Source: a virus
Lineage: Duplodnaviria > Heunggongvirae > Uroviricota > Caudoviricetes
Virus record (IMG/VR): IMGVR_UViG_2855308460_000004
DNA length: 64,000 bases
Strand: one strand, 5' to 3'
A program made the position numbers and the translations under genes. The notes under the pieces are model-generated. The model had not been told where the DNA came from. It saw only the letters and a list, made by a program, of their open reading frames with translations, and searched no databases. Numbering within the stretch: position 1 is the first letter of the stretch; the number at the start of each line of letters is the position of its first letter. This document shows, in pieces, positions 1-27,077 of the stretch.

Positions 1-20
1 GTTTCCTCAGCTTTTTTGTA

Positions 21-123
21 TAAAAATAAATATTTATATTTTTTCAAAAAAAGGTTAACAAAATGAAAAAATCCATCATAATATATATGTAATAAAAAAA
101 TCACCAAAGCTGTCCATACATGT
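21..123 (+). repeat. Copy A of a ~100-bp conserved module (weaker similarity continues to ~300); second copy at 15996–16092. Contains a sigma-70-like promoter: TTAACA (55–60), 17-bp spacer, ATAATA (78–83)
   Basis: Near-identical direct repeat read in the sequence (…aaaaaaggttaacaaaatgaaaaaatccatcataatatatatgtaataaaaaa…aaagctgtccata…). Both copies lie ~400 bp upstream of a tRNA array. Confidence 0.6.
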
Positions 124-477
124 ATTGTCTCTCCCATGTCATTCTTGACTCGTGATTGTAGCCTAGCAATCATTAAAGGGCAAGATAAAGCTTCCTTCTT
201 CTATATTAAGAAATTAATTTGGTATGGCCTCGGCCATATATGATGGTAGGTATTAGCTCATGTGCTTACAGCTAACTAAAAAAACAGAAAGGATAAACGA
301 CCATGTTAAAGAAAATAACTGTTATGAATCATATTAATGTACCGGCAGTAGCTATGCATAATGATATTATGGATAGATTTTTTGGCATGGATAATTTAAG
401 GATTCGTTTAGTCCGAAGAAAGACCAGTTATATGTGAATTAGTGACTTGATTAGATAGTTATTAATTAACACATATT

Positions 478-506
478 GGAGTCGCTTCGGCGGCTCCATT
501 TTTATT
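478..506 (+). terminator. Intrinsic terminator/attenuator hairpin (ggagtcgc-ttcg-gcggctcc + T-run) just upstream of tRNA array 1
   Basis: GC stem, tetraloop and T tract. Confidence 0.5.
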
Positions 507-538
507 TTACACAAAATAGTTCAATAAGAAAGTTGTAT

Positions 539-610
539 TCCTTGGTAGCTCAATGGTAGAGCGTCCGGCTGTTAACCGGGATGTTGCAGGTTCGAGTCCT
601 GTCCTTGGAG
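539..610 (+). tRNA. tRNA-Asn (GTT); acceptor stem has two U·U mismatches (pairs 4–69 and 5–68)
   Basis: Cloverleaf read manually: D-stem gctc/gagc, anticodon loop ctGTTaa, T-arm gcagg-ttcgagt-cctgt. Confidence 0.55.
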
Positions 611-615
611 CTTAT

Positions 616-689
616 GGCTTAGTAGCTTAGAGGCTTAAAGCGCTGCCCTGTCACGGCAGAGATCGTGGGTTCGAATCCCATCTAAGTCG
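616..689 (+). tRNA. tRNA-Asp (GTC)
   Basis: Acceptor ggcttag/ctaagtc, anticodon loop ctGTCac, T-loop ttcgaat. Confidence 0.75.
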
Positions 690-710
690 TTTGTTTCAAA
701 TAATTGTTAC

Positions 711-784
711 TGGTTGATAGCTCAGTTGGTTAGAGCAACCGCCTGTTAAGCGGTGGGTCGTGGGTTCAAGTCCCACTCTTCCAG
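711..784 (+). tRNA. tRNA-Asn (GTT), second copy; same U·U mismatches at acceptor positions 4 and 5
   Basis: Anticodon arm accgc-ctGTTaa-gcggt, T-arm gtggg-ttcaagt-cccac. Confidence 0.55.
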
Positions 785-788
785 CTAT

Positions 789-860
789 ATCTCCATAGTT
801 CAATGGAAGAGCATTACGTTGACATCGTAAAGGTTGTTGGTTCGACTCCAACTGGAGATA
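789..860 (+). tRNA. tRNA-Val (GAC)
   Basis: Perfect acceptor atctcca/tggagat, anticodon loop ttGACat. Confidence 0.8.
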
Positions 861-864
861 TTTT

Positions 865-941
865 GGGATGATAGCTTACTTGCGGTCCGCAGCACTGGTC
901 TGAAAAACCAGAGGGTGATGGTTCGACTCCATCTCATCTCA
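865..941 (+). tRNA. tRNA-Phe (GAA) with an enlarged 12-nt D-loop (77 nt)
   Basis: Anticodon arm ctggt-ctGAAaa-accag, T-arm gatgg-ttcgact-ccatc. Confidence 0.55.
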
Positions 942-945
942 TTTT

Positions 946-1018
946 GGCTTATTAGATTAATTGGTTAAATCACATGCCTGTCACGCATGAGACATGGGTT
1001 CGAATCCCATATAGGTCG
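946..1018 (+). tRNA. tRNA-Asp (GTC), second copy
   Basis: Anticodon arm catgc-ctGTCac-gcatg, T-loop ttcgaat. Confidence 0.75.
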
Positions 1019-1024
1019 TTTTAT

Positions 1025-1097
<73 letters not shown>

Positions 1098-1101
1098 CTT
1101 T

Positions 1102-1173
1102 GCTGGATTAGTTCAGTGGTAGAGCACTGGTCTGATATACCAGGAGTCGTTGGTTCAAATCCAACATCCAGCA
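1102..1173 (+). tRNA. tRNA-Ile (GAT)
   Basis: Perfect acceptor gctggat/atccagc, anticodon loop ctGATat. Confidence 0.8.
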
Positions 1174-1177
1174 TTAC

Positions 1178-1249
1178 ATCCGCATAGCTCAATGGATAGA
1201 GCATCGTTCTTCTAAATCGACGACAAGAGTTCGATTCTCTTTGCGGATA
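1178..1249 (+). tRNA. tRNA-Arg (TCT)
   Basis: Perfect acceptor atccgca/tgcggat, anticodon loop ctTCTaa. Confidence 0.75.
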
Positions 1250-1254
1250 TTTTT

Positions 1255-1328
1255 CGGAGTGTGCAGCTAAATGGTAGGCAGCTTCCCTTGGAAGGAAGAA
1301 CGTGTGAGTTCGAATCTCACTGCTCCGA
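1255..1328 (+). tRNA. tRNA-Pro (TGG); D-arm pairing poor
   Basis: Anticodon arm cttcc-ctTGGaa-ggaag, T-arm gtgag-ttcgaat-ctcac. Confidence 0.6.
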
Positions 1329-1330
1329 CT

Positions 1331-1417
1331 AATCCAGTAGTATAATGGAAGTCGATTTAATATATAAGTACGCTGGCTTGTCCGTCAGTAGTGCCGGTTC
1401 GATTCCGGCCTGGATTG
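1331..1417 (+). tRNA. tRNA-like 87-nt element; no canonical anticodon arm could be folded (atypical tRNA or pseudo-tRNA)
   Basis: Perfect acceptor aatccag/ctggatt and canonical T-arm gccgg-ttcgatt-ccggc; the interior is AT-rich with no 5-bp/7-nt anticodon hairpin. Confidence 0.35.
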
Positions 1418-1421
1418 TTTT

Positions 1422-1495
1422 GGGATCATAGCTCTAAATGGGAGAGCATTTGCCTTGCAAGCAAAGGGTTGAGGGTTCAAATCCCTCTGGTTCCA
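1422..1495 (+). tRNA. tRNA-Ala (TGC)
   Basis: Anticodon arm tttgc-ctTGCaa-gcaaa, T-arm gaggg-ttcaaat-ccctc. Confidence 0.8.
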
Positions 1496-1542
1496 TTTGA
1501 TGAAGTGGGAAAAGTATTATAATTCCGATTTCTATCAATTTA

Positions 1543-1615
1543 CGGGATGTAGCCTAGTTGGTAAGGCGCGTGATTTGGGATCACGAAATCGCAGGTTCAA
1601 GTCCTGTCATTCCGA
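1543..1615 (+). tRNA. tRNA-Pro (TGG), second copy
   Basis: D-stem gcct/aggc, anticodon arm cgtga-ttTGGga-tcacg. Confidence 0.75.
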
Positions 1616-1666
1616 TTTAATTCCATATCATTACCATAGTCTCAGTGATATGGATTATATTAATAT

Positions 1667-1738
1667 GCCCGCTTAACTCAATGGGAGAGTGCTTCCCTTA
1701 CAAGGAAGATGTTACAGGTTCAAGTCCTGCAGCGGGTA
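1667..1738 (+). tRNA. tRNA-Val (TAC)
   Basis: Perfect acceptor gcccgct/agcgggt, anticodon loop ctTACaa. Confidence 0.8.
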
Positions 1739-1740
1739 TT

Positions 1741-1841
1741 ACGCTAATGCCTATGGCAGCTAATGAGCTGGGAGTAAACGAACCTCTGTGCAAGTACTGG
1801 CAGTCAGAAGGCTAGGAAAAGATAAGTGAAACCATTAGCGT
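1741..1841 (+). ncRNA. Structured non-tRNA insert in the array, closed by a 9-bp stem (acgctaatg…cattagcgt); unclassified
   Basis: Long-range inverted repeat plus internal hairpins (cagc-taatga-gctg). No T-loop consensus and no ORF. Confidence 0.3.
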
Positions 1842-1972
1842 ACATAAGCTCCGTGTAAAACACACCAAATAAACATAAGTCTATATAGCGCTGTCGACTA
1901 CGAAGTAGGTGTGTACACGTTAAGATGGTAATATGTAGCAATCCGGGTTCTTTTCGGAGCTTTCCCGGTTAT

Positions 1973-2046
1973 AGTGGATTAGCTCAGTTGGTTAGAGCGT
2001 TGGTCTGATAAGCCAAAGGCCACCGGTTCAAGTCTGGTATCCACTA
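1973..2046 (+). tRNA. tRNA-Ile (GAT), second copy
   Basis: Perfect acceptor agtggat/atccact, anticodon arm ttggt-ctGATaa-gccaa. Confidence 0.8.
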
Positions 2047-2048
2047 TT

Positions 2049-2215
2049 CTGGATTATTAATTTAAATTGCCCAAAACAAATTTAACGGCAGTGGTGGGCG
2101 AAGAGAAGTCGGTATCCCTCACTGCCATGAGGCCAACCACGTGTCTACATAGGATGCAGTCGCACTTCTGTAATATACCGAGCGTGGATTGAAACAAGTT
2201 GGTTTATTAATCCAG
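2049..2215 (+). ncRNA. ~167-nt structured element inside the tRNA array; closing stem ctggatta…taatccag, internal hairpin ggcagtg…cactgcc (2087–2126); unclassified
   Basis: Nested inverted repeats read in the sequence; no tRNA cloverleaf and no plausible ORF. Confidence 0.3.
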
Positions 2216-2345
2216 AAAATTAATATGTTCCTATGCGAAATAATAATATGGAGTCATGACCATAGGATTATATTCATCACTTTTTCATGTGCAAAAAGTA
2301 GAGAGCGATTTGCGAGAACTGGTGCAAGGCCAGACACGAACCCAT

Positions 2346-2416
2346 GCAGATGTAGTTTAACGGAAAAACGCTGTTTTGCCATAGCAGAGTTGAGGGTTCG
2401 ATTCCCTTCATTTGCT
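2346..2416 (+). tRNA. tRNA-Gly (GCC)
   Basis: D-stem gttt/aaac, anticodon arm ctgtt-ttGCCat-agcag, T-arm gaggg-ttcgatt-ccctt. Confidence 0.75.
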
Positions 2417-2421
2417 TCAAA

Positions 2422-2442
2422 CATCCGGCTCATAACCGGATC
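2422..2442 (+). pseudogene. Isolated anticodon-arm-like hairpin (tccgg-ctCATaa-ccgga); possible tRNA-Met remnant
   Basis: 5-bp stem with a 7-nt loop carrying CAT; no D- or T-arm nearby. Confidence 0.3.
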
Positions 2443-2459
2443 TAAAATGTTTTTCTTAT

Positions 2460-2533
2460 ATCAGTATAGCTCAGCAGGCAAGAGCACCAGACTCATACCC
2501 TGGAGGCCGCTGGTTCGATTCCAGCTACTGATA
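2460..2533 (+). tRNA. tRNA-Met/Ile2 (CAT)
   Basis: Perfect acceptor atcagta/tactgat, anticodon loop ctCATac. Confidence 0.7.
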
Positions 2534-2534
2534 T

Positions 2535-2606
2535 TACGGTGTAGTTCAACGGATAGAACATAGGTTTCCTAGACCTACAATATGGGTTCGATTCCCATCA
2601 TCGTAA
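2535..2606 (+). tRNA. tRNA-Arg (CCT)
   Basis: Anticodon arm taggt-ttCCTag-accta. Confidence 0.75.
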
Positions 2607-2608
2607 CT

Positions 2609-2682
2609 GTGGCCGTGGCTCAATTGGTACAGCAGCGGATTGTGGCTCCGCCATTTTGCGGGTTCAACTCCCGTCGGTCACC
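2609..2682 (+). tRNA. tRNA-His (GTG)
   Basis: Anticodon arm gcgga-ttGTGgc-tccgc, acceptor gtggccg/cggtcac. Confidence 0.7.
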
Positions 2683-2692
2683 TTTATTGAAG

Positions 2693-2718
2693 ACCAGTCT
2701 GTAATGGACTGGTTTTTG
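2693..2718 (+). terminator. Intrinsic terminator closing tRNA array 1
   Basis: accagtc-tgtaatg-gactggt + TTTTT. Confidence 0.65.
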
Positions 2719-2734
2719 CATATCTATAAGTTGG

Positions 2735-3016
2735 ATGGAGTATTATAAAGGAATTACGGAGAAGGATAAACCAATTAATGGAGGATCTTTTGTTACTAAA
2801 ACAGGAATGGCAAATGAAGACCTTAATTTCTGTCCGATTGAAATGGAGGATGGGAATGAATATTGTTTTGGCTTTGTTGAAACCAAAAGTACAAATAGAA
2901 AAGATAAAAATCAATTACATATAGAGAATATAGATGGATGCAGACATTTAGTAGATGCGGATTCTGTAGATGATGTGTTGGTTATAGTCTGTGCATTAGC
3001 ATCTTTTAGACAATAG
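2735..3016 (+). CDS. Hypothetical protein (93 aa)
   Basis: ORF only. Confidence 0.3.
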   Translation: MEYYKGITEKDKPINGGSFVTKTGMANEDLNFCPIEMEDGNEYCFGFVETKSTNRKDKNQLHIENIDGCRHLVDADSVDDVLVIVCALASFRQ

Positions 3017-3125
3017 ACGAAGAATCCTCGTGACTTAAGTCATGAGATGAATTCGTTATGTATTAATTATAGATATTTGGTTGACAACATCATCTTTTTC
3101 ATCATCATATATATGGAGGTGAAAT

Positions 3126-4370
3126 ATGCTATTATCAAAAAGAACAACGATCCACGTATCTGAACACCAAGCAAATATTTTGAACCATATGAATTATGCA
3201 GCCAGTAAGTTATGGAATGTATGCAATTATGAGAAACGAAATTATAAGACTTTGGGCATTCCATATCCAAATTGGTACAATCAGAAATCAAGGCTAAAGG
3301 ATAATATCTGGTTTAAGTCGCTTCCATCCCAAACAGCTCAGGAAATCTGCAACCAGATTGATCAGGCTTTTAAAAGCTACTATAAGCTATTAAAAACAGG
3401 TGGAATCAAGTCTCCAAAACCACCTAAATTCAAGCAGGAAGGGATTCCAATTACTTATATGCAGAATGGGATTGTACATAATAAGAAATCTGCACAGATC
3501 CGGCTAAGTATTCCAAAGAATTTAAAGGTACATATGGCAGAACGGTTTGATGTCCATGATAACTATCTATTCCTGGAAAATAAAGTTTTCCAGGACATGG
3601 AAAACATCAAACAGATCAAGCTATATCCACCTGTAAATGGAGAACTACTGATGATTGTTATCTATGAGATTCCAGAGGTTGGCTGGCTTCCAGATAATAG
3701 CCATTATCTGTCCATTGACTTAGGAATCGAGAACCTGATGACCTGCTATGATAGTTTGGGTAACAGTTTTATTGTTGGAAATAGCTACTTGGAAGTTTCG
3801 CATTACTTTAACAAAAAAATTGCACACTATCAGTCCATATCAGACAGTCAGCAAGTGTCAAAAGGAACTAAGTATCCAAAATCTTCCAAACGCGTTCTGA
3901 AGCTCTATAAAAAGAAGCACAACAGTATTAAAGATGTCCTCCACAAATCAACAAAATATATTGTTGATTATTGTTTGGAACATCATATCTATACAGTAAT
4001 TATCGGTGATATAAAACATATCAGGGACAACAATAGTTTGGGTTCTAAAACAAATCAGGTGTTTCATGCCTGGCCATTTCGTGAAATATATTTGATGTTG
4101 GAATATAAATTAAAGCAGCATGGAATTCGCTTAACAAGGATAAAAGAATCCTATTCCAGTCAATGTAGTCCATTATCAAAAGAAGTTAGTAAACGATATG
4201 CAAATAAGTCGAATCGAATAAAAAGAGGCTTATATAAAGAAGCCGGACATATATGGAATACCGATGCGGTAGGCGCTTATAATATCATGAGACTATACTT
4301 TAAACAGATAGGTCGAGGCAAACAGATTTCTCATCAAAACCTAGGAAGTCCGATAAAAGTAACTGTGTAA
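3126..4370 (+). CDS. tnpB: IS605/IS1341-family TnpB-like (OrfB) protein, 414 aa; RuvC-II Glu and zinc finger look degenerate
   Basis: TnpB hallmarks are visible: RuvC-I SIDLGIENL and RuvC-III NTDAVGAYNI. Where the RuvC-II motif (IxEDL) is expected the sequence reads VIIGDIKH. The C-terminal CxxC…CxxC is reduced to a single Cys. Confidence 0.7.
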   Translation: MLLSKRTTIHVSEHQANILNHMNYAASKLWNVCNYEKRNYKTLGIPYPNWYNQKSRLKDNIWFKSLPSQTAQEICNQIDQAFKSYYKLLKTGGIKSPKPPKFKQEGIPITYMQNGIVHNKKSAQIRLSIPKNLKVHMAERFDVHDNYLFLENKVFQDMENIKQIKLYPPVNGELLMIVIYEIPEVGWLPDNSHYLSIDLGIENLMTCYDSLGNSFIVGNSYLEVSHYFNKKIAHYQSISDSQQVSKGTKYPKSSKRVLKLYKKKHNSIKDVLHKSTKYIVDYCLEHHIYTVIIGDIKHIRDNNSLGSKTNQVFHAWPFREIYLMLEYKLKQHGIRLTRIKESYSSQCSPLSKEVSKRYANKSNRIKRGLYKEAGHIWNTDAVGAYNIMRLYFKQIGRGKQISHQNLGSPIKVTV

Positions 4371-4810
4371 CGAAAGTAGCAGTATTGCTGGCATGAACCC
4401 AGTCTAAGGTAACTGTACCTGCAGTGGCTTAGAAGCTTATGACTTTAGTCACGAGTAGTTCACACGATAATGATTCTAGAGTCTACAATATTTTGGCACG
4501 GTGTAATGATGTGGTATTACTTCCTCATTCTACACGTGTGTCGAATAGGCCATTATGGATGGCACCTAGAAATAAAGGCCAACATTTTGGTTTTGGACAA
4601 TCTGAGGTATGGTACGCAACGGATGATAAAGCGTGCAAGTACGCATATCTTAATAGGATTGTTAATCAAATCCAGAATTATAATGGAGATAATTGGTTAT
4701 ATAAATAAGATATCACAATAATATAAAAAATAATCCTTATATTTTTCAATCTTATTATAATCTCTCATATTAATTGTAATTGGAAATTCGGATAATGAAG
4801 GAGCCAAAAC

Positions 4811-16647: not shown

Positions 16648-16651
16648 TTAT

Positions 16652-16736
16652 ACGGCTATTGCCAAGCGGTAAGGCGGGAGGCTTTGACCCTCTTAAATAT
16701 CAATAGATTTCGCTGGTTCGAATCCAGCTAGCCGTG
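16652..16736 (+). tRNA. Class II-shaped tRNA (Ser-like D-arm, 18-nt variable region) with ambiguous anticodon (loop ctttgac: TTG or shifted TGA)
   Basis: Perfect acceptor acggcta/tagccgt; D-arm gcc-aagcggtaa-ggc; T-arm gctgg-ttcgaat-ccagc. Confidence 0.45.
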
Positions 16737-16763
16737 TTATATAACTACCAAAGTTATAATCCT

Positions 16764-16984: not shown

Positions 16985-17066
16985 GCACGTATCGCCTAGT
17001 GGTAGGGCACTCGACTTTTAATCGAGAGGCACATGGCCATCCTGGGTTCGAATCCCAGTACGTGCA
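16985..17066 (+). tRNA. tRNA-Lys(TTT)-like with an anomalous 15-nt variable region (82 nt)
   Basis: Perfect acceptor gcacgta/tacgtgc; anticodon arm ctcga-ctTTTaa-tcgag; T-arm ctggg-ttcgaat-cccag. Confidence 0.45.
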
Positions 17067-17143: not shown

Positions 17144-17412
17144 TGTGCATATTATCGCTGTGGCAAAAAAAGTACTAAAGATATCGGAAACAGCATAAAA
17201 CGACTCTTTGGTAAATAGCACAGACGCATGGAACTAACAATTGTGAAATGCGGAGCAGACAGGATAGGAAAATTGATATGCTGGTCAAAATTACTACTGT
17301 AAAAAAACATGGTATATGAAACTATATCTGCGTAAAGTGGTGAGGTTCTTTTGGATGCCCGATGAAATAAAAATAATGCTTTCGGCCAACTCCACGTAAT
17401 ATGCCCAATTAA

Positions 17413-17832
17413 TTGGAGGTTGTAATGTATCATTTGATAAAGAAACATCAATACCTTGTAATTAGTATCTTATTTATGGTTGTCTTGAGAGGAATAGAGT
17501 TTGCGTTAGTAAATACAGGACATGAATTTGAAATGGTACTCCTTGATCCTATAGCATTCGCACTGCTGTATGTTTTGCTGGCAATAAAATGTAATATTAC
17601 GGATATAAGCAAGATAACATTTACTTTAATATGTCTCATTATGATGTATATAGTAAGCGAATCAATTTTTTTAGTTCCACATTCTTGGATTACTTATAAG
17701 GATAAGGGTTTTTTTGGAGGCCTTTACACATTAATGTATTCATTAACAATCCTGTATGATTGGATATATGTAATCGTGTGTTATTTAATAACAATTATAG
17801 TTAAATTAGTCATTAATAGACTGCGTCTGTAG
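17413..17832 (+). CDS. Small polytopic membrane protein (139 aa) between the two halves of array 2; its stop lies inside the next tRNA
   Basis: RBS ggaggt; four hydrophobic segments; TAG stop at 17830–17832, inside tRNA-Lys (17823–17895). Confidence 0.5.
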   Translation: MEVVMYHLIKKHQYLVISILFMVVLRGIEFALVNTGHEFEMVLLDPIAFALLYVLLAIKCNITDISKITFTLICLIMMYIVSESIFLVPHSWITYKDKGFFGGLYTLMYSLTILYDWIYVIVCYLITIIVKLVINRLRL

Positions 17833-18430: not shown

Positions 18431-18591
18431 TCCTATAGTCGCTGTGGTACGGACACAGACGCCATCGCAGGTCATAGTGGCGGAGCAAGGACGAGTCGAA
18501 ACGATGACGGTATTAGACAGTCTAAATAGAGCAAAGGCAGATTGCTTGCGTAAAGAGGTGAGTCTTAGCGGACAATTCCTCGCTATAGGAA
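18431..18591 (+). ncRNA. ~160-nt structured element between tRNAs, closed by a 9-bp stem (tcctatagt…gctatagga); unclassified
   Basis: Long-range inverted repeat plus internal hairpins (gcaaaggcagattgcttgc, cgaaacg loop); no ORF. Confidence 0.3.
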
Positions 18592-18676
18592 TACTATATA
18601 TTTTTGACCGTTTGTGGAGCTGACTTTTTGGTATGTGAGGTTAGTGGTGACAATGAGGAGGAGGGCATTGTCATTA

Positions 18677-26853: not shown

Positions 26854-27077
26854 TGAAAAGAGCCTGCCAGGGCTCTTTTTAATGTGTATGTGTCTGTTTA
26901 CACTGTAGACATAGATAGGCTCCACAGGCTGTACATTTTTCATAGTTGTCCTTATATAATTTTGTCTGACAATCATGGCAGACTACAGGGACACCAGAAA
27001 AACATAATTTCTTTCTGCTTGCCGTGATTTTATTTTCTTGCATTAATTATCCTCCTTGGTTCTTTAGTATAAATATA

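What the first reader, a model, noticed from the sequence alone, without database searches (positions are those of the whole stretch)
1741..2215. Structured non-tRNA inserts inside tRNA array 1 (1741–1841 and 2049–2215)
Two segments between tRNAs are closed by long-range stems of 9–10 bp and contain nested hairpins. They have no T-loop consensus and no credible ORF; the overlapping + ORF 2189..2563 runs across tRNAs. A third analogous element sits in array 2. They could be small ncRNAs, processing signals, intron or homing-element remnants, or decoys.
Basis: seen in the sequence. Interest (0 to 1): 0.55.

Follow-up and report, generated by a model that had tools for sequence, protein, structure and literature searches.

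The report
Transposon RNA fragment in tRNA array
One of the two "structured inserts" is a recent, strain-specific insertion of a fragment of a multi-copy gut-bacterial mini-transposon that carries a guide-RNA-like fold ending in a CRISPR-repeat look-alike; the other shows no convincing sign of function, while a truly conserved, unclassified structured RNA sits in the second tRNA array.

Summary
The stems and hairpins are there, but the two inserts are different things, and the window is not demonstrably phage. It is 100% identical to a 472-kb contig of an Enterocloster aldenensis isolate, in a 33%-GC plasmid-like region.

E2: its core (2064/5-2195) matches a ~210-nt non-autonomous IS200/IS605-type element that is multi-copy in Lachnospiraceae and Oscillospiraceae. 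The family fold (hairpin, pseudoknot, long-range helix) covaries strongly. The window copy lacks the left end. The last 37 nt resemble a type I-C CRISPR repeat. No tnpB lies beside any copy.

E1 (1741-1841) has a conserved 10-bp closing stem, but an ordinary folding energy, broken inner pairs, no relatives and no Rfam match.

Array 2 holds a real structured RNA family with no Rfam match: E3 (17147-17404; 13 compensatory pairs, none broken) and its paralogue E4 (18431-18590).

Best reading: E2 is a passenger fragment of a guide-RNA-like (omega-RNA-type) module, and E1 is unassigned spacer.

The parts
1741..1841 (+). E1: lineage-specific inter-tRNA segment with a 10-bp closing stem (1740-1749 with 1833-1842). 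It starts directly after tRNA-Val(tac), which ends at 1739. Nature unassigned.
   Evidence: Sequence. Fold z = -0.70. Inverted repeat matched by 7/300 shuffles. No Rfam match. Not detected by models R1 or R2. 94-97% conserved in related assemblies but absent from the L096-L099 lineage. One compensatory pair, but 3-4 broken inner pairs.
1842..1971 (+). Rest of the same gap (E1b), including a short GC hairpin (about 1944-1966) just upstream of tRNA-Ile(gat). Unassigned spacer.
   Evidence: no paralogues, conserved only in close relatives, several predicted pairs broken by substitutions.
2049..2060 (+). 5' arm (CTGGATTATTAA) of a pre-existing inter-tRNA hairpin.
   Evidence: The hairpin is present without the insert in 13 related assemblies (CTGGATTATTAATTTTAAGTTAGTTTATTGATCCAG). 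In L094 the arms read CTGA...TTAG; in the window they read CTGG...CCAG. That change keeps the pairing.
2064..2195 (+). E2 insert: 5'-truncated copy (no left-end hairpin) of the right-end RNA module of a multi-copy IS200/IS605-type non-autonomous element. Helices: H1 2089-2098 with 2116-2124; pseudoknot 2109-2115 with 2175-2181; H2 2134-2141 with 2183-2191. It ends at the family terminus ...GGATTGAAAC.
   Evidence: Model R1 scores 123.5 bits, E~1e-33, and this is the only copy in the window. 85 copies were found in 83 loci. Pair counts: 90.8% of cells paired against 34-45% for slid controls, 14 pairs with changes on both sides, 0/500 shuffles as good. It is a presence/absence polymorphism.
2159..2195 (+). 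Type I-C CRISPR-repeat look-alike at the 3' end of E2: GTCGCAC-TTCTGTAATATACCGA-GCGTGGATTGAAAC. The repeat's central hairpin is replaced by the loop that forms the pseudoknot.
   Evidence: Compared with published I-C repeats: GTCGCACTCTTCATGGGTGCGTGGATTGAAAT (PMC6519985), GTCGCTCCCTGTGAGGGGAGCGTGGATTGAAAT (PMC4645204) and GTCGCGTCCTCACGGGCGCGTGGATTGAAAC (PMC8406640). In Blautia sp. BIOML-A1 the element's variant (GTCAG..CTGTGAGTTGAAAC) matches that genome's own I-C repeat, GTCAGCCTCCTCGTGAGGCTGTGAGTTGAAAT.
2196..2215 (+). Original loop remnant (AAGTTGG) plus the 3' arm (TTATTAATCCAG, 2204-2215) of the pre-existing hairpin. This stretch occupies the position a guide would take if E2 acted as an omega-RNA.
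   Evidence: The sequence is native to the array; empty sites read ...TTTT^AAGTTAGTTTATTGATCCAG.
3005..4462 (+). Context: a separate, complete IS605-family element encoding TnpB (ORF 3126-4370). Its left-end hairpin resembles that of the E2 family, but its right end is of a different type (...GACTTTAGTCACGAGTAGTTCA).
   Evidence: Pfam PF01385 and PF07282. Boundaries come from 94% identity to L084 with unrelated flanks. R1 finds no E2-type RNA in 89 loci of this TnpB clade. There is colinear motif similarity to E2 downstream of the tnpB stop codon.
17147..17404 (+). E3: conserved multi-helix structured RNA with a 9-bp closing stem, starting 4 nt after tRNA-Cys. It matches no Rfam family.
   Evidence: RNAalifold on 5 distinct sequences (window, L181/L182, L096/L097, L098, L099) predicts 61 pairs, 13 with compensatory changes and none broken. 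No Rfam match.
18431..18590 (+). E4: shorter paralogue of E3 with the same architecture, starting 1 nt after tRNA-Thr. Absent at this position in the L096 lineage.
   Evidence: Model R2 was built from E3 sequences only, yet scores E4 at 66.6 bits, E~3e-17, over the full model length. The corresponding L096 gap lacks it.

Best explanation
The two 'inserts' have different origins.

E2. Its core (window 2064/5-2195) is a 5'-truncated copy of the right-end RNA module of a ~210-nt non-autonomous IS200/IS605-type element (a PATE/MITE). That element is present in many copies in gut Lachnospiraceae and Oscillospiraceae.

In the bacterial copies the element sits 3' of a TTYAAC motif, starts with a left-end hairpin, and ends sharply at ...GTGGATTGAAAC. 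This 131-nt module folds into a hairpin, a pseudoknot and a long-range helix next to the 3' boundary. That is the layout of a transposon guide RNA (TnpB omega-RNA), whose guide would be the DNA flanking the right end.

In this one E. aldenensis lineage the module, without its left end, was inserted into the loop of an older hairpin between tRNA-Ile and tRNA-Gly.

Inferred, not shown: E2 is a passenger. It is transcribed with the tRNA operon and released by tRNA processing together with the flanking hairpin. At most it acts as an orphan scaffold for a nuclease encoded elsewhere. It cannot transpose again, because it has no left end.

E1 (1741-1841) and the rest of its gap are lineage-specific spacer with a conserved closing stem. 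Nothing else points to a specific function.
For: Family membership: R1 scores 123.5 bits.

Element anatomy: alignments within single genomes show sharp boundaries, a left flank of TTTAAC or TTCAAC (40 of 43 copies) and a right terminus of GAAAC.

Structure: 90.8% of cells paired against 34-45% for slid controls, 14 pairs changed on both sides, 0/500 shuffles as good. Examples of paired changes: CCACAG/CTGTGG, TCACAG/CTGTGA, TTCATGC/GCGTGAA, CCGCGC/GCGCGG, CTACGC/GCGTAG. One variant also changes the pseudoknot, TCGATAT with ATATCG.

Insertion polymorphism: 13 related assemblies (TelA 94-99% identical) lack E2 and carry GGATTATTAATTTT^AAGTTAGTTTATTGATCCAG. The 3' junction is exactly the family terminus.

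Link to IS605/TnpB: the family's left-end hairpin resembles the left end of the TnpB element at 3005-4462. E2 also shares motifs in the same order (TAACG, GCAGT, CATGA, TACC, GTGG.TT.GAA.C) with the region after that tnpB's stop codon.

Literature: PATEs often encode omega-RNAs that TnpB acts on in trans (PMC10055086).

E1.
Against: No tnpB, iscB or other nuclease gene lies next to any of the 85 copies examined.

The 89 loci of the TnpB clade closest to the window's own TnpB all lack this RNA. The proposed protein partner is therefore unidentified.

The element has no obvious TnpA-type hairpin close to its right end. How it is mobilised is unclear, and so is how a left-end-less copy was inserted with a precise right junction.

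The exact match of the last 13-15 nt and the first 5-8 nt of the 3' module to type I-C CRISPR repeats is not predicted by the omega-RNA reading.

No expression data are available. For E1, a 10-bp closing stem kept in all 14 assemblies hints at more than junk, possibly a role in processing or stability.
Confidence: 0.62

Rival explanations
1. E2 and its family are type I-C CRISPR-repeat mimics rather than TnpB guides. The RNA would present the 5' end and the complete 11-nt handle of the host's I-C repeat. That would let it bind Cas5c/Cascade either as an RNA anti-CRISPR (a Racr-like solitary repeat) or as a crRNA-like guide. A copy placed in a strongly transcribed tRNA operon of a large low-GC replicon would then blunt host I-C immunity.
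For: The last 37 nt of E2 match published I-C repeats at both ends: GTCGCACT plus GCGTGGATTGAAA. In Blautia sp. BIOML-A1 the element's variant, GTCAG..CTGTGAGTTGAAAC, matches that genome's own I-C repeat variant, and a copy lies just beyond the last repeat of its 46-repeat I-C array. RNA anti-CRISPRs that mimic repeats are known, including a I-C one (PMC10651486).
Against: The repeat's central hairpin, which Racr activity required in the I-F case, is not kept. The handle region is base-paired in helix H2 and covaries with its partner (GTGG/CCAC, GTGA/TCAC, GTGAA/TTCAT). This argues for a structural constraint rather than a strict sequence one. Most copies are chromosomal mini-transposons, not on phages or plasmids: only 2 hits in IMG/VR and none in PLSDB. 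The match to a host's own repeat rests on a single genome. E2 is present in 1 of 14 assemblies, so it is not a maintained feature of this replicon.
Confidence: 0.2
2. E1 and E2 are purpose-built small ncRNAs or processing signals of the tRNA operon, as the first reader mainly suggested. They would be maintained because the array needs them.
For: All four non-tRNA elements (E1, the E2 hairpin, E3, E4) begin within 1-4 nt of the 3' end of the upstream tRNA and are closed by a stem. E1's closing stem is kept in all 14 assemblies, with one G-C to G-U change. The hairpin around E2 keeps pairing through paired changes between lineages.
Against: E2 is missing from 13 of 14 assemblies. E1 is missing from the L096-L099 lineage, whose array works with a small ORF in that position. 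E1's folding energy is ordinary, and 3-4 inner pairs are broken by substitutions. There is no Rfam match.
Confidence: 0.12
3. The segments are degenerate tRNA pseudogenes.
For: They lie in a tRNA array, and the closing stems loosely resemble acceptor stems.
Against: ARAGORN and the Rfam tRNA model find nothing there, even at E<=10. E2 has a full-length, high-scoring match to an unrelated family. E1 has no T-loop and no D-arm.
Confidence: 0.03

Closest known systems
PATEs (palindrome-associated transposable elements): non-autonomous IS200/IS605 elements that carry omega-RNAs (Meers et al., PMC10055086)
   Same: Short (~210 nt), with no ORF, and multi-copy with sharp ends. There is a conserved motif (TTYAAC) on the 5' flank, a left-end hairpin about 18 nt inside the boundary, and no terminal inverted repeats. 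A conserved structured RNA module ends exactly at the right boundary.
   Different: No TnpA-type hairpin is recognisable next to the right end. No tnpA or tnpB partner has been identified. The right end looks like a type I-C CRISPR repeat. The window copy is only the right-end module.
TnpB omega-RNA (reRNA) of IS605-family elements
   Same: A ~130-nt scaffold with a pseudoknot and a helix next to the guide position. It is located at the transposon's right end with flanking DNA in the guide position. It shares motifs in the same order with the region downstream of the tnpB in this window.
   Different: It was never found attached to a tnpB gene (0 of 85 copies; 0 of 89 TnpB loci of the nearest clade). 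It matches no Rfam family. Protein binding is untested.
RNA anti-CRISPRs (Racrs, solitary repeat units; Camara-Wilpert et al. 2023, PMC10651486), including RacrIC1
   Same: A solitary sequence that resembles the host's CRISPR repeat (type I-C), including the whole 5'-handle. Here it is carried on a non-chromosomal-looking replicon.
   Different: The repeat hairpin is not preserved. The mimic is embedded in a larger pseudoknotted scaffold. The family is mostly chromosomal and transposon-borne, and it is not next to acr genes as far as was examined.
Stable non-tRNA RNAs inside the phage T4 tRNA gene cluster (species 1 and 2 RNAs; cited from general knowledge, not checked here)
   Same: Non-tRNA structured RNAs embedded in a tRNA operon and presumably released by tRNA-processing enzymes. 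This is the best analogy for E3/E4, and possibly for E1.
   Different: No sequence or structural relationship was tested. The replicon here is not shown to be a phage.

Membership tests
IS200/IS605-type non-autonomous element (PATE/MITE) | Multi-copy within genomes, with identical sharp ends and unrelated flanks | tested here: met
The scan returned 21 loci from MAG CAKSDC; the 15 of them aligned share the same ends.
IS200/IS605-type non-autonomous element (PATE/MITE) | Insertion 3' of a short conserved target motif, with no terminal inverted repeats or target duplication | tested here: met
   The left flank is TTTAAC (24) or TTCAAC (16) in 43 full-length copies. The ends are not inverted repeats.
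IS200/IS605-type non-autonomous element (PATE/MITE) | Subterminal hairpins at both ends that resemble each other (TnpA binding sites) | tested here: inconclusive
   The left-end hairpin is present and resembles that of the IS605 element at 3005-4462. No similar hairpin is seen near the right end.
IS200/IS605-type non-autonomous element (PATE/MITE) | The window copy is itself a complete element | tested here: not met
   The window copy starts at AATTGCC, downstream of the left-end hairpin, so only the right-end module is present.
TnpB omega-RNA | Encoded at or overlapping the 3' end of a tnpB gene, or demonstrably used by one in trans | tested here: not met
   No tnpB lies next to any copy. R1 finds nothing in 9 + 80 TnpB loci of the nearest clade. 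Use in trans could not be tested.
TnpB omega-RNA | Conserved scaffold ends at the transposon's right boundary, so the guide is flanking DNA | tested here: met
   Conservation stops at GAAAC(AA) in all families.
TnpB omega-RNA | Structured scaffold with a pseudoknot | tested here: met
   The pseudoknot TCGGTAT/ATACCGA is 90.7% paired, with one change on both sides. Helices H2 and H3 covary strongly.
TnpB omega-RNA | Binds TnpB and directs TAM-dependent DNA cleavage | not testable with these tools
   Needs biochemistry or genetics.
RNA anti-CRISPR / solitary CRISPR repeat unit (type I-C) | Sequence similar to a CRISPR repeat of the host's type | tested here: met
   Shares 8 + 13 nt with the B. 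halodurans I-C repeat, 5 + 15 nt with the R. hominis repeat, and 5 + 14 nt with the host's own repeat in Blautia sp. BIOML-A1.
RNA anti-CRISPR / solitary CRISPR repeat unit (type I-C) | Repeat stem-loop retained for binding by the processing nuclease | tested here: not met
   The central palindrome is replaced by a 12-17-nt loop that forms the pseudoknot. Only 3-4 bp of the stem base remain.
RNA anti-CRISPR / solitary CRISPR repeat unit (type I-C) | Inhibits CRISPR interference | not testable with these tools
   Needs an interference assay.
tRNA / tRNA pseudogene | Cloverleaf with T-loop, detectable by tRNA models | tested here: not met
   There is no ARAGORN or RF00005 match in 1740-1971 or 2048-2345, even at E<=10.
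Any Rfam 15 family | Covariance-model match | tested here: not met
   Gathering-threshold and E<=10 scans of the gaps and of homologues give only tRNAs and noise.

The most novel reading that the evidence does not exclude
A family of IS200/IS605-type mini-transposons in gut Lachnospiraceae has fused a pseudoknotted guide-RNA scaffold to a look-alike of the host's own type I-C CRISPR repeat, with both ends and the full 5' handle kept. If this is functional mimicry, there are two possibilities: the element is a transposon-borne RNA anti-CRISPR, or it borrows the host's Cas5c/Cascade in place of TnpB as its RNA-guided partner. In either case the copy dropped into a tRNA operon of a large low-GC replicon would be an expressed anti-defence or guide RNA.
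Probability: 0.2. Interest if true: 0.8.

Novelty: new variant of a known kind. Interest (0 to 1): 0.5.

Why it matters
For the original question, the result is deflating. The E2 'structured insert' is a recent transposon fragment, not a designed part of the tRNA array, and E1 has no demonstrated function.

Two by-products are worth more.

1. The parent element is an abundant, apparently undescribed RNA-bearing mini-transposon of human-gut Clostridia. It matches no Rfam family, and the few literature searches run here did not turn it up. Its fold is strongly supported by covariation, and its 3' end copies type I-C CRISPR repeats. That gives a concrete, testable link between transposon guide RNAs and CRISPR repeats or anti-CRISPR RNAs.

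2. The second tRNA array carries a conserved multi-helix RNA family of 160-260 nt (E3/E4) that matches no Rfam family. It lies on a low-GC replicon that also encodes SecY/SecE, ClpP, HPF and RtcB.

The comparison also shows that inter-tRNA gaps in these arrays are insertion hot spots. They hold the mini-transposon fragment, an IS605 element, GIY-YIG endonuclease genes and small ORFs.

Tried and rejected
1. Rfam at gathering threshold and at E<=10, on the window gaps, on a bacterial E2 homologue and on an E3 homologue: only tRNAs and noise.

2. BLAST against INPHARED phages. No related phage was found. E2 hit only two 'Bacteriophage sp.' faecal scaffolds whose context looks bacterial. E3 and E4 had no hit. 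PLSDB plasmids: no hit.

3. IMG/VR scans for E1, for E3/E4 motifs, and for relatives of the TelA and methylase proteins: nothing. E2-type patterns gave only 2 contigs.

4. Looking for the E2 RNA at the 3' end of tnpB. It is not next to any of 85 copies, and not in 9 + 80 loci encoding relatives of the window's TnpB. So it is not the omega-RNA of that clade.

5. A weak R1 hit at 26914-27045(-) is a small zinc-ribbon ORF region, not an RNA copy.

6. Searching the fetched loci for orthologous empty sites of full-length copies, to fix the left boundary: none found.

7. Type I-C 'homing' idea (PAM TTC plus flank): rejected. The flank in an empty site would be preceded by AAC, not TTC. The degenerate terminal CRISPR repeat in L059 also shows that TTCAAC belongs to the target, not to the element.

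8. 'Hodor' conjugative megaplasmids (PMC12934698) as the context: not the same. They have 44-47% GC and tRNAs are not mentioned.

9. E1 as a member of the E2 or E3/E4 families: neither model detects it.

Full report
**Context**

ARAGORN and Rfam find 19 tRNA genes between 539 and 2682 and 19 more between 16489 and 19077. The longer non-tRNA gaps are 1740-1971 and 2048-2345 in array 1, and 17144-17821 and 18431-18676 in array 2.

The window is 100% identical over its first 8 kb to contig QSGP01000005.1 (472 kb) of an Enterocloster aldenensis isolate assembly, GCA_003467385.1. GC content is about 33% throughout.

Pfam was run on 20 of the larger ORFs. They gave TelA, LytR, EAL, SecY, an N6/N4 methylase, an ATP-grasp protein, RtcB, TnpB, flotillin, radical SAM, ADP-ribosylglycohydrolase, a glycine-betaine ABC transporter, MYG1, a ParA-like ATPase and RecD2. 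None is a phage structural protein, and INPHARED holds no related phage. PHROGs was not run. The phage premise is therefore not supported. The region looks like part of a large low-GC accessory replicon or island.

**The observation**

E1 (1741-1841) is closed by a perfect 10-bp inverted repeat. Only 7 of 300 shuffles of the gap do as well. Its overall fold is ordinary, at z = -0.70.

E2 (2049-2215) folds better than shuffles, at z = -2.2. Its closing stem is not unusual for this AT-rich sequence; 43 of 300 shuffles match it.

Neither segment has an Rfam match, even at E<=10, nor a credible ORF.

**What E2 is**

BLAST found ~80% identical copies of the E2 core in two faecal scaffolds with no tRNAs nearby. 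All but a few (assigned to Tidjanibacter or only to 'bacterium') come from Lachnospiraceae or Oscillospiraceae, and many come from the same genome.

Alignments within single genomes show a ~210-nt element with sharp ends:
- the left flank is TTTAAC or TTCAAC (40 of 43 copies);
- a left-end hairpin follows (..CTCCCACCTCTATAGGTGGTGAGATGAATTGC..);
- the conserved 131-nt module comes next;
- the element ends at ...GTGGATTGAAAC, after which the flanks are unrelated.

A covariance model, R1, was built from 28 diverse copies. It finds exactly one copy in the window, at 2065-2195 (123.5 bits), and 85 copies in the fetched loci.

On that 85-sequence alignment, the hairpin H1, a pseudoknot between the H1 loop and the 3' region, and the helices H2 and H3 are 90.8% paired. 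Slid controls give 34-45%. Fourteen pairs change on both sides, and 0 of 500 shuffles do as well. One search lists explicit compensatory variants.

**E2 is an insertion**

Fourteen assemblies of the same replicon region span this site: the window's own source plus 13 others, with TelA 94-99% identical. Only the window's source contains E2.

The other 13 read CTGGATTATTAATTTT^AAGTTAGTTTATTGATCCAG, or a variant of it.

The 3' junction is exactly the family terminus. The 5' end is truncated just after the left-end hairpin, so this copy cannot be a complete element. Other 5'-truncated copies with intact 3' ends occur in bacterial genomes. How such copies are inserted is not explained.

**What the module does**

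The anatomy is that of a PATE carrying a guide RNA. A conserved, pseudoknotted scaffold ends at the right boundary, with flanking DNA in the guide position. Meers et al. report that PATEs often encode omega-RNAs used in trans (PMC10055086).

The window also holds a complete IS605-family TnpB element at 3005-4462. Its left-end hairpin resembles that of the E2 family. The region after its tnpB stop codon shares motifs with E2 in the same order.

The proposed partner, however, was not found. No tnpB lies beside any copy. None of 89 loci from the nearest TnpB clade contains the RNA.

**The CRISPR-repeat resemblance**

The last 37 nt of E2 are GTCGCACTTCTGTAATATACCGAGCGTGGATTGAAAC. They match published type I-C repeats at both ends.

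Locus L059 (Blautia sp. BIOML-A1) carries cas8c-cas7-cas4-cas1c-cas2 and a 46-repeat array with the repeat GTCAGCCTCCTCGTGAGGCTGTGAGTTGAAAT. A copy of the element sits just beyond the last repeat. That genome's variant of the element ends GTCAGACTCTGTGAAATTACCGACTGTGAGTTGAAAC, so it shares the host repeat's own 5' and 3' variants.

Three points argue against functional mimicry:
- the repeat's hairpin is not preserved;
- the handle region is paired in H2 and covaries with its partner;
- the host-matching evidence comes from one genome.

I therefore keep the omega-RNA-like reading as most likely and rate repeat mimicry at about 0.2. It remains the most interesting open possibility.

**E1**

E1 and the rest of its gap are 94-97% conserved in the 13 related assemblies. 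They are absent from the more distant L096-L099 lineage, where a 61-codon ORF occupies the equivalent position.

Among the substitutions, one pair changes compensatorily and the closing stem tolerates a G-C to G-U change. However, 3-4 predicted inner pairs are broken. E1 has no paralogue or relative in anything fetched, and neither RNA model detects it. I treat it as unassigned spacer with a conserved terminal stem.

**Array 2**

E3 (17147-17404) is conserved in three lineages. RNAalifold predicts 61 pairs, 13 with compensatory changes and none broken, and hairpin loops vary in length.

A model built from E3 sequences alone detects E4 (18431-18590) at 66.6 bits. E4 is absent at that position in L096. 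Rfam has no match. This is a genuine structured RNA family that matches no Rfam family.

All four non-tRNA elements begin within 1-4 nt of an upstream tRNA 3' end and are closed by a stem. This fits release by tRNA-processing enzymes, but that step is inferred, not shown.

**Verdict**

- E2 is a new variant of a known kind: a PATE/omega-RNA-like module with a CRISPR-repeat-like end. It is present here as a recent passenger fragment.
- E1 is unresolved and probably unremarkable.
- E3/E4 deserve follow-up in their own right.

Noticed in passing
window 17147-17404 and 18431-18590: E3/E4 form a conserved multi-helix structured RNA family (about 160-260 nt) embedded in tRNA array 2. E3 has 13 compensatory pairs and none broken across three lineages. 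E4 is a paralogue, detected by a model built from E3 alone. There is no Rfam match and no IMG/VR hit.
   Followed up: partly
L059 (Blautia sp. BIOML-A1 scaffold17), minus strand, about locus 1-3300: A full-length copy of the E2-family element sits directly after the degenerate terminal repeat of a 46-repeat type I-C CRISPR array. The degenerate repeat's end (..ATTCAAC) supplies the element's TTCAAC target motif. The element's 3' end shares GTCAG and CTGTGAGTTGAAA with that array's repeat.
   Followed up: partly
window 1-64000 (whole window): The window is identical to an Enterocloster aldenensis isolate contig (472 kb) but has only ~33% GC. It carries second-copy-like cellular genes (SecY plus SecE in relatives, ClpP, HPF, dCMP deaminase, TelA, LytR, OpuA transporter, flotillin, ParA-like, RecD2, RtcB) and 38 tRNAs. 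It is likely a large low-GC accessory replicon or island rather than a phage.
   Followed up: partly
window 1497-1665 versus L094 4210-5110, L181 6389-6826, L194 2609-3334: Related assemblies carry a GIY-YIG homing-endonuclease gene at the position of the window's tRNA-Pro(tgg) region in array 1. The gene is an intact 241 aa in some and fragmented in others. Together with the other insertions, this marks the inter-tRNA gaps as insertion hot spots.
   Followed up: no
window 3005-4462: This is a complete IS605-family TnpB element. It is 94% identical to copies on unrelated contigs (L084, L100). It is present in some related assemblies (L094, L095, L180) and absent in others (L181, L194-L202), so it is currently mobile.
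   Followed up: partly
window 1330-1418, 16651-16737, 16985-17066: Three tRNAs are unusually long for their type: Ile-tat 89 nt, Gln-ttg 87 nt and Lys-ttt 82 nt. Rfam also calls a tRNA at 865-941 that ARAGORN misses. They may have insertions, introns or odd arms.
   Followed up: no
window 17427-17820: An AT-rich stretch containing a small hydrophobic ORF lies between E3 and tRNA-Lys(ctt) in the window. It is absent in L181/L182 and L096, where E3 is followed by the tRNA within 5-9 nt.
   Followed up: no
L015, L025, L029, L061, L083, L013 (bacterial loci): Several chromosomal copies of the E2 family are 5'-truncated at different points but keep an intact 3' terminus, like the window copy. This suggests a recurrent insertion route, one-ended or otherwise non-canonical, that standard IS200/IS605 transposition does not explain.
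   Followed up: no
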